Shown here: piece after piece, positions 54,088 to 60,000 of the stretch
Position numbering within the stretch: the first letter of the stretch is position 1
How the letters are laid out: each line of letters opens with the position of its first letter
Made by a program: the position numbers
Assembly: GCF_016903815.1 (NCBI RefSeq)
Contig: NZ_CP069973.1
Origin: Escherichia coli
GTDB lineage: Bacteria; Pseudomonadota; Gammaproteobacteria; Enterobacterales; Enterobacteriaceae
Reading direction: 5' to 3' (one strand)
DNA: 64,000 bases

Positions 54088-57000
54088 CTAAACGTAACAC
54101 ATAACGCCAATTCATTCCTTGAAATCGTTTGCATCCAGCTCGTGTCGGGATAGCAGTTTATAAAATTCTGTCCGGTTGCGCCCCGCCATTCTCGCCGCGT
54201 GGGTGACGTTGCCTTTGGTAATTTGCAGCAGCTTACGCAAGTAGTTGAGTTCAAACTGATTACGCGCCTCAACAAAGGTTGGCAGCGCCGTGTTTTCGCC
54301 CTCCAGCGCCTGCTCTACTAATGCATCGCTAATCACCGGAGATGAGGTCAGCGCCACGCACTGTTCAATCACGTTGACCAACTGGCGTACATTACCCGGC
54401 CAGCTAGCGGTCATCAGGCGTTTCATCGCATCGGTGGAGAACGCGCGGACAAACGGTTTATGTCGCTCTGCCGCCTGGCGCAACAGGTGATTTGCCAGTA
54501 GCGGAATGTCTTCTGTGCGCTCTGCCAGAGCCGGAATTTTCAGGCTGACAACGTTGAGGCGGTAATAGAGATCTTCACGGAATTCCCCGCGCGCCATCGC
54601 TTTTGGCAGGTCGCGGTGAGTGGCGGAAATAATCCGCACGTCGATATCAATATCGCGGTTACTGCCCAGCGGGCGCACTTTACGCTCCTGCAACACGCGC
54701 AGCAGTTTAACCTGCAACGGTGCGGGCATATCGCCAATCTCATCGAGAAATAGCGTACCGCCTTCCGCCGCCTGGAATAAACCTTCGCGATTGCTGACAG
54801 CGCCAGTAAACGCGCCACGCGCATGACCAAACAGCTCCGACTCCAGCAATTGCTCGGGCAATGCACCACAGTTAATAGCAATAAATGGTTTGCTATTGCG
54901 CGGGCTAGCGTTGTGGATAGCCTGGGCGAAAATCTCTTTCCCGGTGCCGCTCTGGCCATTAATCAAAACGCTGACGTCTGATTGCGCCACCAGCCGCGCC
55001 TGTTCCAGCAAACGCAGCATCAGCGGGCTGCGGGTGACAATCGCCTCGCGCCAGCGTTCATCGGTGGCTGGCGCGGATTGTTCCAGCGCATCATCAATTG
55101 CCTGATATAGCGCGTCTTTATCGACAGGCTTGGTGAGGAAACTGAACACTCCCTGCTGTGTTGCAGCAACGGCATCGGGAATAGAACCATGTGCGGTAAG
55201 AATAATTACCGGCATTCCCGGCTGCACTTTCTGGATTTCAGCAAACAGCTGCATACCATCCATTTCATCCATCCGCAGGTCGCTGATAACTAAATCTACT
55301 TTTTCGCGATTCAGTACCCGTAATCCTTCAGCACCACTTTCCGCCGTGACCACGCTGTAGCCTTCGCTGGTCAGGCGCAGGCCAAGCAGTTTCAGCAATC
55401 CCGGATCGTCATCGACCAATAATAAATGCGCAGGTTTATGGCTCATCAGGAGTGACCTCATCGGTGGATGGCGCGGGCTTTTCACTCTCGTGTGGCGTAT
55501 CCGGCGAGAAATTTCCAGCCGGTTTGCGGGTCGAGAGCTGGCGTTCAATATCAGTCAGGTTTTCCAGCTTGCGGGTGGTGAGTTCCAGTTGCTGCTGTAG
55601 AACGTGATATTGCTGGCGCAAAGTATCCAGCTCGCTGTCGCTGGATTGCTGGAGCTTGCCGTAGCGTTGGCGCTCTTCCGCCAGTTGCAGTTGCAGCGCC
55701 TGACTGTCGCGCCAGAGTTGATACAGAGGGCGAACCTGTGCCGGGATCTCGGTACTTAGCGCATCAATGCGCGCGACCAGCTGGCGGCGCTCATACGGTG
55801 TAATTTTGGCGTCGGCGAGCAAAATCCCTTGTTTAAAGGTATTTTGCCAGCTGCCGTCGTCATATTGGCGGGCTTGCTGACGCGACTGCGCAGGCATTAA
55901 ACGATCAGCACAATCCATCGCCCGCAGCCAGTAAAGCGGATTGGTTTCGGTTGATTTACCTTGCAGCGCCCAGATGTCGCTACATTCAGTAGAAAGATAG
56001 TCAGCCAGTTGATAAACCGGAATTTTTTCTTCTGCTGGCGTATCAATGGCTGGCTTATTGTGACTCTGCACGCAACCCAGCAATGCCAGACATGGCAGCC
56101 CTGCCAGCCACAGCCGTCGGGGCAATAATCGTTGAAAAATGTGTCGCATATTCACCAGACTTAGCGCCTTTCCCAGTGGGCGTAATTGTTGCAGGCAGTT
56201 TGGATACGGACAGCGCGGAGAAACCGGAGCGTACATGTCGTACGTGAGGATTTCGAGCACTGCCCAGGGCCAAACTGGCAAATAAAATAGCCTGATGGGA
56301 TAGGCTGTTAGCATTATTTCGTGTTTTTCGACGACGGCAATTCAATGCGGAAGCAAACGTCTTGCCCGCTCTCGTCGACCAGATACAGTTCCCCTTGCAT
56401 ACGGCGAATACAATCCCTGGCAATGCTTAATCCCAGACCGCTGCCCTTCACCGCCCCTTTTCGCTGGTGGCTTCCCTGAAAAAAGGGTTCGAAGATCATG
56501 GCGCGTTCCTCTTGCGGAATGGGTGTTCCTGTATTGATGACATCAATATAAACCCGCGCGCCATGTAAACTGCTGCGAAGGCAAATGTTACCGGATTCAG
56601 TCCCGTAGTGCACAGCATTGGAGTAAAGATTATCCAGTACGCTCATCAGCAGCATTGGCTCCGCCAGGCAAGCTGTTGCTTGGAGATCGACGTCGGTATG
56701 CATCATTTTAGCCCGTGCGGGCAGGCTATGAGCAGAAACTACTGTCTCCACCAGCGGTGCTAATTCAACATTCTCCAGTTCCACCGCACTGTCCGCCTGT
56801 TTACGGTTGTAATCAAGCAGTTGTTCGATCAGTTTTTGCAAATTGCGGCTGCTGCTATCGAGGATGCTCACCACCTCTTTTTGCTCTGGCGTAAGCGGCC
56901 CGACAACCTGGTCAGCCAGTAATTCAGTGCCCTCGCGCATACTCGCCAGCGGCGTTTTTAATTCATGAGATAAATGTCTTAAGAATTGATGACGTTGGGA

Positions 57001-60000
57001 TTCCAGCCATGACAGGCGCTCACTTAACCAAAGAATACGTTGCCCAACCGAGCGTAACTCGCTCGGTCCACTGAACGAAACGCTATTGCCCAGAGAACGC
57101 CCTTCCCCCAGCCGGTTGATCATGCGCTCGATATTTTTCACCGGACCGATAATCATCCTCGTGAAAAGTAGCACCATCACCAGACTCACCAGAAATAGCA
57201 CCAGCGATTGCCAACCAAAATATTGCCCACGTTCGGCGATTTCACGCTGAAGTTGCTGCCCACGAGAGAACACCACTGTGCGCGTGGCCTGCACCATTTC
57301 GGTATTGGCACTGGCAAAGGCTTCAAGACGCGCGGCGGCGGCGGCATCGGGACCACTGTTGTTACACTGAAGTTGAGCCAGATTGTTCAAATCCTGACGC
57401 AATGCCTGGTAAAGTTTATCGTCTGGCAGTACGCCTGCGTGGGCATCGAGCATTTCGCTGTAACGCTTGCGCTGGCTTTGATAAACCTTCGCAAGCGTAG
57501 GGTCGTCCAGCACGCAATACTGACGGTAACTACGCTCCATCTCCAGCGCCGCGTTGGTCATCGCTTCACTGCGCCGGGCATCAATAAGCGTAGTGCGGTT
57601 AACCAGCGCCGCCTGATCGCTAAGCGCATTCAGGCTTTGCCAGGCTTGCCATGCCAGCACCAACAGGGGCAGCAGAATCAGCAAAAATGCCAGCATTACC
57701 AGTTGTCGTAATGAGCGGGGAAAAACGGGCCAGCGTTTCAAGGTGTTACTCTCGTCAGACGCGAATAGCCTGATGCTAACCGAGGGGAAGTTCAGATACA
57801 ACAAAGCCGGGAATTACCCGGCTTTGTTATGGAATAAGGCGGTGCCTAACTCGACGTTTCGCCCGATGGTTGATATAGCTACGCTGATATCAGAAGTTGG
57901 ACGGCAGGCACCTTGTTGTGCGTCATTCGAATTTTATGTAGCACGTCCCGAAGGGGCTGACATAAGTCGGTGAATGAGCCACTGCTTACTATTATGCAGT
58001 AACTGTGCCAATAAAGAAAATAGTTTGGTAACGTACTGATTATACGCTGCTTTGAGGGATTTATGGCTTCTTCGCTATTTGAATGTAAATCAGCCACTGT
58101 GTCGCTAAAAAGAGACAACTTAAGATAAACTTATTAGATACTATTAAAATCAATCAGTTAAGTGTCGCCAGAAAGCGACACGGTAAACCACCCATTGTCG
58201 TGATTTACAGACACAAAAAAGCTCCCGAAGTTGGGAGCTTATAATAGCGGTTGGTGCTTAATGCCGGATGCGGCTGCAAAACCAATGGGTTGACGGCTTA
58301 TCCCAATTGCTTACGTGCATTGCGGAAAATACGCATCCACGGCCCATCCTCGCCCCAGTTTTCCGGATGCCAGGAGTTGCTGACAGTACGGAAAACACGT
58401 TCCGGGTGCGGCATCATAATGGTGACTCGACCACTTTCAGTCGTAACCGCCGTAATACCGTTCGGTGAACCGTTCGGGTTAGCCGGGTAGGTTTCAGTGA
58501 CTTTACCGAAGTTATCGACATAGCGCAGTGCCACCAGCCCTTTGCTTTCCAGTGCCGCCAGATGCGCCGCATCACGCACTTCCACGCGCCCTTCACCATG
58601 AGATACAGCAATCGGCATTTGCGAGCCCACCATCCCCTGCAACAGCAGAGACGGGCTTTGGGTTACTTCAACCAGGCTGAAACGCGCTTCAAAGCGATCG
58701 GAGGTATTGCGCACAAAACGTGGCCACAACTCACTACCTGGGATCAGTTCGCGCAGATTAGACATCATCTGGCAACCGTTACATACCCCCAGCGCCAGCG
58801 TTTGCGGACGGTGGAAGAAGGTTGCAAACTCATCGCGTACACGGTCATTGAACAGGATAGACTTCGCCCAACCTTCACCGGCACCCAGCACATCACCGTA
58901 GGAGAAACCACCGCACGCGACCAGGGCGTGGAAATCCTCCAGGCCCGTGCGTCCAGCCAGCAGGTCGCTCATATGCACGTCGATAGCATCGAAGCCTGCA
59001 CGGTGGAAAGCTGCCGCCATTTCAACATGCGAGTTCACGCCCTGCTCACGCAGCACAGCAACTTTCGGACGTGCGCCAGTGGCAATATACGGTGCTGCCA
59101 CATCTTCGTTGATATCGAACGACAGTTTTACATTCAGGCCCGGATCGGCGTCGTTTGATTTCGCCTGGTGCTCCTGGTCGGCACACTCCGGGTTGTCACG
59201 CAGGCGCTGCATCTGCCAAGTAGTTTCTGCCCACCAGACACGCAACGTGGTGCGGCTTTCGCTGAATACAGTCTGCCCGTTGGCGGTAATCACAAAACGG
59301 TCACCGGAAACCGCCTGCCCAACATAATGGACGCAATCCGCAAGCCCATGCTGTGCCAGTACCGCTTCAACTGCTTCACGGTCAGCGGCACGAACCTGAA
59401 TCACCGCACCCAGTTCTTCGTTAAACAACGCCGCCAGGCGATCGTCACCCAGAGTGGCGATATCCGCGTCAATGCCGCAATGACCAGCAAAGGCCATTTC
59501 CGCCAGCGTTACCAGCAGGCCGCCATCCGAGCGGTCGTGGTACGCGAGCAGCTTACGCTGTGCAACCAGCGCCTGAATCGCGTCATAGAAGCCTTTCAGT
59601 TGGGCAACGTCGCGTACATCTGCCGGTTTGTCGCCAAGCTGACGATAAACCTGCGCCAGCGCCGTTGCGCCCAGCGCGTTATTGCCTTTGCCCAGATCAA
59701 TCAGCAGTAATGCGTTATCTTCGGTAGAAAGCTGCGGCGTGATGGTGTGACGCACATCTTCCACACGGGCAAATGCAGAAATCACCAGCGACAGCGGCGA
59801 CGTCATTTCGCGCTCTTCGTTACCTTCCTGCCAGCGGGTTTTCATCGACATAGAGTCTTTACCCACCGGGATCGTCAGGCCCAGCGCCGGACAAAGTTCT
59901 TCGCCCACAGCTTTAACGGCTTCATACAGGCCCGCATCTTCACCAGGGTGGCCTGCCGCCGCCATCCAGTTGGCGGAAAGTTTAATGCGTTTGATATCGC

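What the first reader, a model, noticed from the sequence alone, without database searches (positions are those of the whole stretch)
56314..57741. Non-ATG initiation codons at glrK, mltF and the yphG ORF-track start
The conserved N-termini of GlrK (KRWPVFPR...) and MltF (KKLKINYLF...) follow a TTG in frame with no upstream ATG (57741 and 62443). The ORF-track start of yphG is also a TTG, though an internal ATG with a good SD (49521) is more plausible. TTG starts usually mean low translation initiation, relevant for a sensor kinase.
Basis: seen in the sequence. Interest (0 to 1): 0.2.

Follow-up and report, generated by a model that had tools for sequence, protein, structure and literature searches.

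The report
Conserved TTG starts of glrK, mltF
Two ordinary E. coli genes (the sensor kinase glrK/qseE and the cell-wall enzyme mltF) begin with the rare start codon TTG, and yphG begins at a normal ATG, exactly as current annotations say; the only added point is that related bacteria keep these weak start codons far more faithfully than neutral sites.

Summary
The window is E. coli chromosome.

Independent support:
- **glrK:** the start column is TTG in 75 and GTG in 6 of 81 genome loci, never ATG. Codon periodicity begins right after it. The next ATG (codon 16) is not conserved. The published qseEGF transcription start lies 25 nt upstream, so the in-frame TTGs at 57804/57801 are not on the mRNA.
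- **mltF:** a TAA precedes the TTG. TTG is present in 69 of 69 loci and in 5414 of 5426 E. coli genomes.
- **yphG:** orthologues and paralogues start at the ATG or one codon upstream of it.

Two TTG starts among 51 annotated genes is what chance predicts. The first base of each start codon is far better conserved than four-fold degenerate sites in the same genes, which suggests selection for a weak start. That fits the published low abundance of QseE, but nobody has tested it.

Side lead: a roughly 44-nt hyperconserved mltF initiation region with a possible hairpin. Interest is low.

The parts
56314..57741 (-). glrK (qseE, yfhK) coding sequence, 475 aa, sensor histidine kinase
   Evidence: RefSeq CDS in strain 7/2 and MG1655 b2556 map to exactly these coordinates. 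Histidine-kinase families match residues ~160-473.
57739..57741 (-). glrK TTG start codon
   Evidence: Sequence. The aligned column is TTG in 75 and GTG in 6 of 81 genome loci, never ATG. It is GTG in a more distant clade recovered from metagenomes. 31-mers with ATG or GTG substituted match no E. coli genome.
57750..57754 (-). weak Shine-Dalgarno-like GAGAG, 8 nt upstream of the glrK TTG
   Evidence: Columns -13 to -9 are 0.8-0.9 conserved across 79 loci, while the flanks are not. Anti-SD duplex energy is -3.4 kcal/mol.
57766..57778 (-). qseEGF sigma-70 promoter: -10 element TAGCAT (57773-57778) and transcription start (~57766)
   Evidence: [quoted passage not shown] The motif ctcRgTTAGCAT is conserved across genera. 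In K. pneumoniae the mapped TSS follows the same motif. Assigning the hexamer as the -10 box is my inference.
57799..57804 (-). two in-frame TTGs that open the mechanical ORF; rejected as starts
   Evidence: They lie in the glmY terminator T-run, upstream of the published TSS. Many species have an in-frame stop 4-13 codons upstream of the aligned start with no alternative start between.
57800..57983 (-). glmY small RNA gene directly upstream of glrK
   Evidence: Rfam RF00128 matches 57836-57983 at 147 bits. The MG1655 ncRNA feature ends 58 nt before the glrK start.
62443..63999 (+). mltF (yfhD) coding sequence, 518 aa, membrane-bound lytic murein transglycosylase F
   Evidence: RefSeq CDS. NCBIfam equivalog NF008112 matches residues 1-481 to profile positions 1-481 at 754 bits.
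62440..62445 (+). in-frame TAA stop followed directly by the mltF TTG start
   Evidence: Sequence. TTG in 69 of 69 genome loci. The 31-mer context is present in 5414 of 5426 E. coli genomes, 100% identical in 5413. A degenerate pattern with ATG/GTG found 0 metagenome matches; the TTG version found at least 120.
62427..62470 (+). hyperconserved mltF translation-initiation region with a predicted hairpin (CAGAG.AAUUAA / UUAAUU.AUCUG) enclosing the UUG
   Evidence: Third-position conservation is 0.94 in codons 2-9 against 0.65-0.71 further on. MFE is -12.9 kcal/mol, z = -2.3. 84% of cells are paired and 5 pairs show double changes, against 2.6 in shuffles. This is suggestive only.
62567..62583 (+). 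internal SD-like GGGGAGAG followed by in-frame TTG (62575) and GTG (62581); a minor or in-vitro initiation site, not the gene start
   Evidence: INRI-seq lists an alternative TIS at +132 TTG (peak 8.8), not seen in the in-vivo retapamulin data. Anti-SD energy is -8.1 kcal/mol. The consensus in other genera is CTG and GTC at these codons.
46240..49521 (-). yphG coding sequence as currently annotated, 1093 aa, DUF5107/TPR protein
   Evidence: RefSeq in strain 7/2 and MG1655 NP_417044.4.
49519..49530 (-). yphG ATG start (49519-49521) with GAGGG Shine-Dalgarno (49526-49530)
   Evidence: ATG in 9 of 9 loci with at least 72% identity, with TGAGGG conserved. The 54-57% identical homologues start with ATG one codon upstream. 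Anti-SD energy is -6.1 kcal/mol.
49612..49614 (-). yphG ORF-track TTG; rejected as the start
   Evidence: No SD (+1.0 kcal/mol). It lies only 24 nt from the divergent yphH start at 49639. Three orthologous loci have in-frame stops 4-22 codons upstream of the ATG with no start between. RefSeq treats the site as intergenic.

Best explanation
These are the correct, already annotated translation starts of three ordinary E. coli genes.

glrK and mltF initiate at UUG codons preceded by weak Shine-Dalgarno sequences. yphG initiates at the AUG at 49521, and its longer TTG-initiated ORF is an artefact of taking the first possible start after a stop.

Shown:
- The position of each start.
- Deep conservation of a non-AUG start for glrK (UUG, or GUG in some relatives) and of UUG for mltF.
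- Conservation of the first base of each start codon well above the neutral expectation.

Inferred: the weak start codon, together with the weak SD, is kept by selection because it holds synthesis low. For glrK this would be a low-copy membrane sensor kinase, the first gene of qseEGF, whereas the response-regulator gene glrR has AUG and a better SD. For mltF it would be a potentially autolytic cell-wall enzyme.
For: **Annotation.**
- PGAP and the curated K-12 record agree with all three starts.

**glrK.**
- The start column is TTG 75, GTG 6, ATG 0 of 81 loci.
- A more distant clade (GlrK 60-75% identical) has GTG with a stronger SD.
- Codon positions 1/2/3 are conserved at 0.88/0.94/0.70 from codon 2 on, with no such periodicity upstream.
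- Met16 is replaced by T, V or I in many species.
- Many species have an in-frame stop 4-13 codons upstream with no other start.
- The published TSS lies 25 bp upstream.
- No E. coli genome carries ATG or GTG in this context, and 9 of 9 sampled variant genomes keep TTG.

**mltF.**
- A stop codon lies directly upstream.
- TTG is present in 69 of 69 loci, and the 31-mer context is present in 5414 of 5426 E. coli genomes.
- The metagenome scan gave 0 ATG/GTG matches against at least 120 TTG matches.
- The family profile aligns from residue 1.
- The N-terminus KKLK plus a hydrophobic stretch reads as a signal sequence, seen directly in the sequence.

**Selection.**
- Across the same species, invariant four-fold degenerate sites number 0 of 77 in mltF and 2 of 73 in glrK. 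Only 4 of 73 glrK sites reach a major-allele frequency of 0.926.

**Low expression.**
- qseE is weakly expressed and QseE was undetected in a global proteome.
- SD energies are -3.4 and -2.9 kcal/mol, against -6.3 for glrR.
- AUG, GUG and UUG together span 10-100% of AUG in reporters.
- AUG is generally the selected optimum (PMC5622118 abstract).
Against: - I could not obtain direct experimental mapping of either N-terminus by N-terminal peptides or in-vivo initiation profiling.
- INRI-seq reports only an internal in-vitro site for mltF (+132) in the tables held.
- The reason for conservation is not established. In mltF the whole 44-nt region is hyperconserved, so the T of the TTG could be constrained by an RNA or DNA element rather than by initiation rate.
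- The four-fold-site baseline ignores phylogenetic structure. For glrK it gives only about 0.05.
- About 650 E. coli genomes carry some untyped variant within +1 to +25 of glrK.
Confidence: 0.85

Rival explanations
1. The true starts lie downstream, and the TTG-initiated N-termini are not made. Candidates are glrK at the first ATG (codon 16, 57696) and mltF at the internal TTG/GTG (62575/62581) behind the strong SD-like GGGGAGAG.
For: The internal mltF site has the best anti-SD pairing in the region, -8.1 kcal/mol. It gives an in-vitro INRI-seq peak. From memory, an older yfhD annotation of 472 aa would correspond to the GTG at 62581.
Against: - Codons 2-44 of mltF and 2-15 of glrK show protein-coding conservation, with third positions variable and first and second positions conserved.
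- glrK Met16 is T, V or I in many species.
- The internal mltF codons are CTG and GTC in most genera.
- The INRI-seq table records no peak at this site in the in-vivo Meydan data.
- A periplasmic enzyme needs the N-terminal signal sequence, and the MltF family profile aligns from residue 1.
Confidence: 0.03
2. The longer mechanical ORFs are real: glrK starts at TTG 57804/57801 and yphG at TTG 49614 (1124 aa).
For: Both are open in E. coli. The 49614 context is conserved within E. coli. From memory, older yphG entries list 1124 aa.
Against: - The glrK upstream TTGs sit in the glmY terminator, upstream of the mapped TSS. In other genera they are cut off by stops.
- yphG TTG 49614 has no SD (+1.0 kcal/mol) and lies 24 nt from the divergent yphH start.
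- Three orthologous loci have upstream stops without a start.
- Homologues begin at the ATG or one codon upstream of it.
- Current curated and PGAP annotations use the ATG.
Confidence: 0.02
3. In mltF the TTG is conserved because it is embedded in a structured or protein/sRNA-bound regulatory element covering -16 to +27. On this reading the start-codon identity is a by-product of that element, not of selection for a slow start.
For: - Synonymous sites of codons 2-9 are 0.94 conserved, against about 0.68 later in the gene, and 15 nt upstream are at least 0.9 conserved.
- The predicted hairpin has z = -2.3 and is recovered in nearly all species.
- Five pairs show double changes against 2.6 in shuffles. 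The covariation score is 0.131, against 0.103 shuffled and 0.02-0.09 in slid controls.
Against: - Most of the stem never varies, so there is little true covariation.
- The 5' arm coincides with the SD-like GAGA and the 3' arm with constrained codons (N-Y-L), so the pairing could be coincidental.
- In the more distant clade the upper stem is largely lost while the TTG persists.
- No Rfam family matches, and I found no literature on mltF post-transcriptional control.
- The shuffle control is known to be exceeded by related sequences even without structure.
Confidence: 0.2
4. The TTGs are neutral historical accidents with no selective maintenance.
For: Selection on start codons is generally weak (PMC5622118 abstract). 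Both genes are lowly expressed, and such selection is weakest in lowly expressed genes.
Against: The first base of the start codon is invariant in 67-69 species for mltF, while 0 of 77 four-fold sites are invariant. glrK switched to GTG several times but never to ATG, although T-to-A and T-to-G are both transversions.
Confidence: 0.08

Closest known systems
Current annotation of E. coli K-12 glrK (b2556), mltF (b2558) and yphG (b2549), and RefSeq/PGAP annotation of E. coli genomes
   Same: Coordinates and start codons are identical: TTG, TTG and ATG.
   Different: Nothing. The finding restates the annotation.
The qseEGF (glrK-yfhG-glrR) operon with glmY upstream, as described by the Görke laboratory (PMC6075780, PMC3045617)
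   Same: Same synteny glmY-glrK-qseG-glrR-glnB. The operon has its own sigma-70 promoter just after glmY, a TSS 25 bp upstream of the start codon, and very low QseE levels.
   Different: In the passages I read, those papers do not discuss the identity of the start codon ('TTG' occurs 0 times in PMC6075780).
Non-AUG start codons as expression-setting devices in E. coli (UUG is ~3% of genes; AUG, GUG and UUG together span 10-100% of AUG in reporters; AUU of infC and pcnB)
   Same: A sub-optimal start codon combined with a weak SD on a low-abundance protein.
   Different: No autoregulatory loop of the infC/IF3 type has been shown or suggested here. The effect of TTG on GlrK or MltF output has not been measured.
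Genome-wide analysis of selection on prokaryotic start codons (Belinky, Rogozin, Koonin 2017, PMC5622118)
   Same: In the distant clade that uses GTG for glrK the SD is stronger (AGGAAG), which echoes the compensation they describe.
   Different: Their general result is that AUG is favoured. These two genes resist change to AUG across many genera, which is the minority behaviour.

Membership tests
Genuine UUG-initiated bacterial CDS (glrK) | No alternative in-frame start lies on the mRNA upstream | tested here: met
   The published TSS is 25 nt upstream. The only upstream in-frame starts (57804/57801) lie before it.
Genuine UUG-initiated bacterial CDS (glrK) | The start column is conserved as a start codon, and coding periodicity begins immediately after it | tested here: met
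   TTG 75 and GTG 6 of 81 loci, and GTG in the distant clade. Codon positions 1/2/3 are 0.88/0.94/0.70 conserved from codon 2.
Genuine UUG-initiated bacterial CDS (glrK) | Shine-Dalgarno element at a suitable distance | tested here: met
   Conserved GAGAG 8 nt upstream, but weak at -3.4 kcal/mol.
Genuine UUG-initiated bacterial CDS (glrK, mltF) | Experimentally determined N-terminus or initiating-ribosome footprint | not testable with these tools
   No entry for these genes in the supplementary files held. The Meydan 2019 tables are not held. INRI-seq lists only an internal mltF site.
Genuine UUG-initiated bacterial CDS (mltF) | No upstream alternative, and a conserved start column | tested here: met
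   TAA directly upstream. TTG in 69 of 69 loci. 0 ATG/GTG against at least 120 TTG matches in metagenomes.
MltF family (NCBIfam NF008112, equivalog) | Full-length match above the curated cut-off, starting at residue 1 | tested here: met
   754 bits against a cut-off of 354, with residues 1-481 aligned to profile positions 1-481.
GlrK/QseE sensor kinase of the glmY-qseEGF locus | Histidine-kinase core, plus synteny glmY upstream and qseG-glrR-glnB downstream | tested here: met
   Histidine-kinase family matches over residues ~160-473. GlmY RF00128 at 147 bits directly upstream. Gene order.
yphG start at ATG 49521 | Homologues' N-termini align to it, an SD is present, and the upstream extension is not conserved | tested here: met
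   ATG in 9 of 9 loci with at least 72% identity, and in the 54-57% identical homologues ATG lies one codon upstream. SD energy -6.1 kcal/mol. Three orthologous loci have upstream stops.
Structured translational control element (SD/start-sequestering hairpin) in the mltF leader | Conserved hairpin supported by compensatory changes | tested here: inconclusive
   z = -2.3. 84% of cells paired, and 5 pairs with double changes against 2.6 in shuffles. Most pairs are invariant, and the upper stem is lost in the distant clade.
Structured translational control element (SD/start-sequestering hairpin) in the mltF leader | Regulated change in translation (temperature, ligand, sRNA or protein) | not testable with these tools
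   Needs reporter fusions or structure probing. I found no literature.

The most novel reading that the evidence does not exclude
The roughly 44-nt mltF initiation region (62427-62470) is a dedicated translational control element. It includes an obligatory UUG, a weak SD, and eight codons whose synonymous sites are almost frozen across Enterobacteriaceae. On this reading an AU-rich hairpin, or a binding site for an unknown factor, gates synthesis of a potentially autolytic transglycosylase. In parallel, the never-AUG start of glrK would be a selected device that fixes a very low kinase-to-regulator ratio in the QseE/QseG/QseF system.
Probability: 0.2. Interest if true: 0.4.

Novelty: already known. 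Interest (0 to 1): 0.12.

Why it matters
For annotation, it confirms that three starts in this window are right. It also shows why taking the first start after a stop misleads for glrK and yphG (and, noted in passing, qseG and yphH).

For biology, the payoff is modest. Two low-abundance envelope proteins keep a weak start codon across many genera, against the general pull towards AUG. Start-codon choice would then be part of how the QseE/QseF signalling stoichiometry and the dose of a cell-wall-cleaving enzyme are set. Simple TTG-to-ATG allelic replacements could test this. Nothing here opens a long-standing question.

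Tried and rejected
**Searches for direct experimental start-site data that found nothing usable**
- TRAINSPOTTER N-terminomics supplements contain no glrK, mltF or yphG.
- The bioRxiv version of Meydan et al. has no supplements held, and the Mol Cell version (PMC7115971) is not held.
- The supplements of the riboproteogenomics paper PMC11005335 have no hits.
- INRI-seq gave only an alternative internal mltF site.
- The E. coli TSS tables of PMC3415461 are truncated. Only the K. pneumoniae yfhK TSS was recovered.

**Literature searches that drew blanks**
- mltF start codon or TTG: nothing relevant.
- mltF with sRNA or Hfq: nothing relevant.
- PMC10139938 says nothing specific about MltF dosage.

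**Explanations considered and rejected**
- Downstream starts, upstream starts and neutral drift: see the rival explanations.
- A structured glrK leader: folding the 25-nt leader plus early codons gives z = +0.86, no better than shuffles.
- Read-through from glmY as the source of glrK mRNA: the literature says it virtually does not occur.
- A promoter explanation for the conserved block at the mltF start: the bases 23-28 nt upstream of the TTG, where a -10 box for a transcript starting at the block's 5' edge would lie, read GACGCG, and the consensus scan reports no promoter-like site there.

**Limit of the 31-mer typing trick**
- It cannot say what the ~650 E. coli genomes with a variant in glrK +1 to +25 carry. 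All nine sampled variants retained TTG.

Full report
**What the window is.** Window 56000-63999 is 100% identical to several E. coli chromosomes and is present in 5424 of 5426 complete E. coli genomes. Gene order in this part of the window is yphEFG, yphH, glyA, hmp, glnB, glrR, qseG, glrK (qseE), glmY, purL, mltF. Window coordinates equal those of strain 7/2 (NZ_CP023820.1) minus 2938807, except for the first ~484 bases.

**Check of the observation.** The codons are exactly as described.
- glrK: TTG at 57741-57739 on the minus strand, followed by K R W P V F P R.
- mltF: TTG at 62443 on the plus strand, followed by K K L K I N Y L F, with TAA immediately upstream.
- yphG: the mechanical ORF starts at TTG 49614. 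An in-frame ATG at 49521 lies behind GAGGG.

Three details need adding. The mechanical glrK ORF opens 21 codons further up, at TTG 57804 and TTG 57801. The first ATG inside glrK is codon 16. yphG has another upstream in-frame TTG at 49590.

The frequency is unremarkable. Of 51 complete annotated CDSs in the window, 47 use ATG, 2 GTG and 2 TTG. Published frequencies of 3-4.35% predict 1.5-2.2 TTG starts.

**Annotation.** RefSeq/PGAP for strain 7/2 and the curated MG1655 record place the starts at 57741 (glrK, 475 aa), 62443 (mltF, 518 aa) and 49521 (yphG, 1093 aa). RefSeq treats the region around 49614 as intergenic.

**Independent evidence for glrK.** I fetched 80 loci from one genome per species across Escherichia, Citrobacter, Salmonella, Enterobacter, Kosakonia, Kluyvera, Buttiauxella and others.
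- With two E. coli reference records added, the column aligned to 57741 is TTG in 75 and GTG in 6 of 81 loci, and never ATG.
- Residues 2-15 are conserved as protein while their third codon positions vary (0.88/0.94/0.70 for codon positions 1/2/3). No such periodicity exists upstream.
- Met16 is Thr, Val or Ile in many species, so the downstream ATG cannot be the conserved start.
- In many species an in-frame stop lies 4-13 codons upstream with no start codon in between.
- Göpel and Görke state that qseEGF has its own sigma-70 promoter immediately after glmY. [quoted passage not shown] This puts the TSS near 57766. The motif ctcRgTTAGCAT (57773-57786), conserved across genera, then becomes the -10 region. 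A TSS mapped in K. pneumoniae follows the same motif. The TTGs at 57804/57801 sit in the glmY terminator (glmY 57800-57983) and are not on this mRNA.

Within E. coli, the exact context is present in 4330 of 5426 genomes. The common variant is A-to-G at -3. Nine sampled variant genomes all keep TTG and the same annotated start. 31-mers with ATG or GTG substituted match no genome.

Metagenome loci fetched for mltF also carried glrK from a more distant clade (GlrK 60-75% identical). There the start is GTG behind a stronger SD (AGGAAG), and the -10 motif persists.

**Independent evidence for mltF.**
- The stop codon directly upstream leaves no longer ORF in E. coli.
- TTG is present in 69 of 69 loci, even where the preceding codon is not a stop.
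- The 31-mer around it is present in 5414 of 5426 E. coli genomes, 100% identical in 5413.
- A degenerate DNA pattern encoding the N-terminus with ATG or GTG found nothing in the metagenome collection.
- The MltF equivalog profile aligns from residue 1.
- The N-terminus reads as a signal sequence, a Lys-rich segment followed by a hydrophobic one.

INRI-seq lists an in-vitro alternative site at +132 (TTG 62575, behind GGGGAGAG), not seen in vivo. The corresponding codons are CTG and GTC in most genera. Codons 2-44 show coding conservation, so this is at most a minor internal site.

**Independent evidence for yphG.**
- Loci with at least 72% identity all begin with ATG at the aligned position, with TGAGGG conserved.
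- The 54-57% identical homologues begin with ATG one codon upstream.
- Three orthologous loci have in-frame stops 4-22 codons upstream without a start.
- TTG 49614 has no SD and lies 24 nt from the divergent yphH start.

**How it most likely works.** Both TTG starts have weak anti-SD pairing, -3.4 and -2.9 kcal/mol. This compares with -6.3 for glrR in the same operon and -6.1 for yphG. In reporters, AUG, GUG and UUG together span 10-100% of AUG. qseE is reported as weakly expressed, and QseE was undetectable where QseG and QseF were counted at 11 and 36 molecules per cell.

I added a test of whether the TTG is maintained. Across the same species, four-fold degenerate sites in the same genes have a mean major-allele frequency of about 0.6. 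None of 77 such sites in mltF, and 2 of 73 in glrK, are invariant. Only 4 of 73 in glrK reach the 0.926 seen at the start codon. glrK has switched to GTG several times but never to ATG. This argues for purifying selection on a weak start. It runs against the general tendency towards AUG (PMC5622118). That step is inference, because the baseline is not phylogeny-aware and no expression experiment exists.

**Side lead.** The mltF initiation region is unusually frozen. Fifteen bases upstream and codons 2-9 are conserved at all three positions (third positions 0.94, against 0.65-0.71 later in the gene).
- It can fold into a hairpin (CAGAG.AAUUAA / UUAAUU.AUCUG) that encloses the UUG, with MFE -12.9 kcal/mol and z = -2.3. 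The hairpin is predicted in nearly all species.
- On 62 distinct sequences, 84% of cells pair, and five pairs show double changes against 2.6 in shuffles. The covariation score is 0.131, against 0.103 shuffled and 0.02-0.09 in slid controls.
- The evidence is thin. Most pairs never vary. One arm is the SD-like element and the other lies in constrained codons. The upper stem is lost in the distant clade, which still keeps TTG.
- No Rfam family and no literature point to regulation here. I record it as suggestive only.

**Comparison with what is known, and verdict.** Its biological context (glmY-qseEGF, promoter, low QseE) is published. The cross-genus pattern of non-AUG conservation and the frozen mltF leader are small additions. 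Novelty: already known. Interest: low.

Noticed in passing
window 62427-62470 (+): The mltF initiation region is nearly invariant at the nucleotide level across genera, including synonymous sites of codons 2-9. It can form an AU-rich hairpin that encloses the UUG start and the weak SD.
   Followed up: partly
window 62567-62583 (+): An SD-like GGGGAGAG inside mltF is followed by in-frame TTG (62575) and GTG (62581). INRI-seq reports an in-vitro initiation peak here. The GTG would give a 472-aa product which, from memory, matches an older yfhD annotation. It is not conserved as a start codon in other genera.
   Followed up: partly
window 57773-57786 (-): The motif ctcRgTTAGCAT between glmY and glrK is conserved from Escherichia to a clade with only ~60-70% GlrK identity. 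It fits the -10 region of the published qseEGF promoter, and a K. pneumoniae TSS maps just after it.
   Followed up: partly
metagenome loci L099, L104, L113, L114, L143, L160, L170, L197, L202: In a more distant Enterobacterales clade glrK starts with GTG behind a stronger SD (AGGAAG or GGGAAT), while mltF in the same loci still starts with TTG. This looks like start-codon and SD co-adjustment.
   Followed up: partly
window 56149-56314 (-): The mechanical qseG ORF starts at an ATG (56314) that overlaps the glrK stop (TAATG), 55 codons before the annotated start at 56149. That ATG has no SD, and the extension would bury the lipoprotein signal peptide. A weak terminator-like hairpin plus T-run (56289-56306) follows the glrK stop. 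INRI-seq lists a CTG at -9 for yfhG.
   Followed up: partly
window 1-484 (-): The left end of the window differs from strain 7/2. It encodes an IS3-family OrfA ([23 protein letters not shown]..., IS629/IS1203-like from memory) inserted into the 3' part of the intimin-like autotransporter gene sinH.
   Followed up: partly
window 57725-57744 (-), E. coli population: Polymorphisms occur next to the glrK start: a common A/G at -3 (about a fifth of complete genomes), and rarer K2N (AAA to AAC) and W4C (TGG to TGC) variants. About 650 genomes carry some untyped change in +1 to +25.
   Followed up: partly
window 6444 and 7736 (-): yfgM and hisS are the two annotated GTG starts in the window. Nothing unusual was seen.
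   Followed up: no
window 49633-49641 (+): The yphH mechanical ORF starts at GTG 49633, two codons before the annotated ATG 49639. This is another case where the first possible start is not the annotated one.
   Followed up: no
K. pneumoniae MGH 78578 KPN_02881 and KPN_02883 (PMC3415461 supplements): The older Klebsiella annotation makes yfhK 12 nt and mltF 60 nt longer than in E. coli. The mapped yfhK TSS then leaves only a 5-nt leader, so both annotations are probably over-extended.
   Followed up: no
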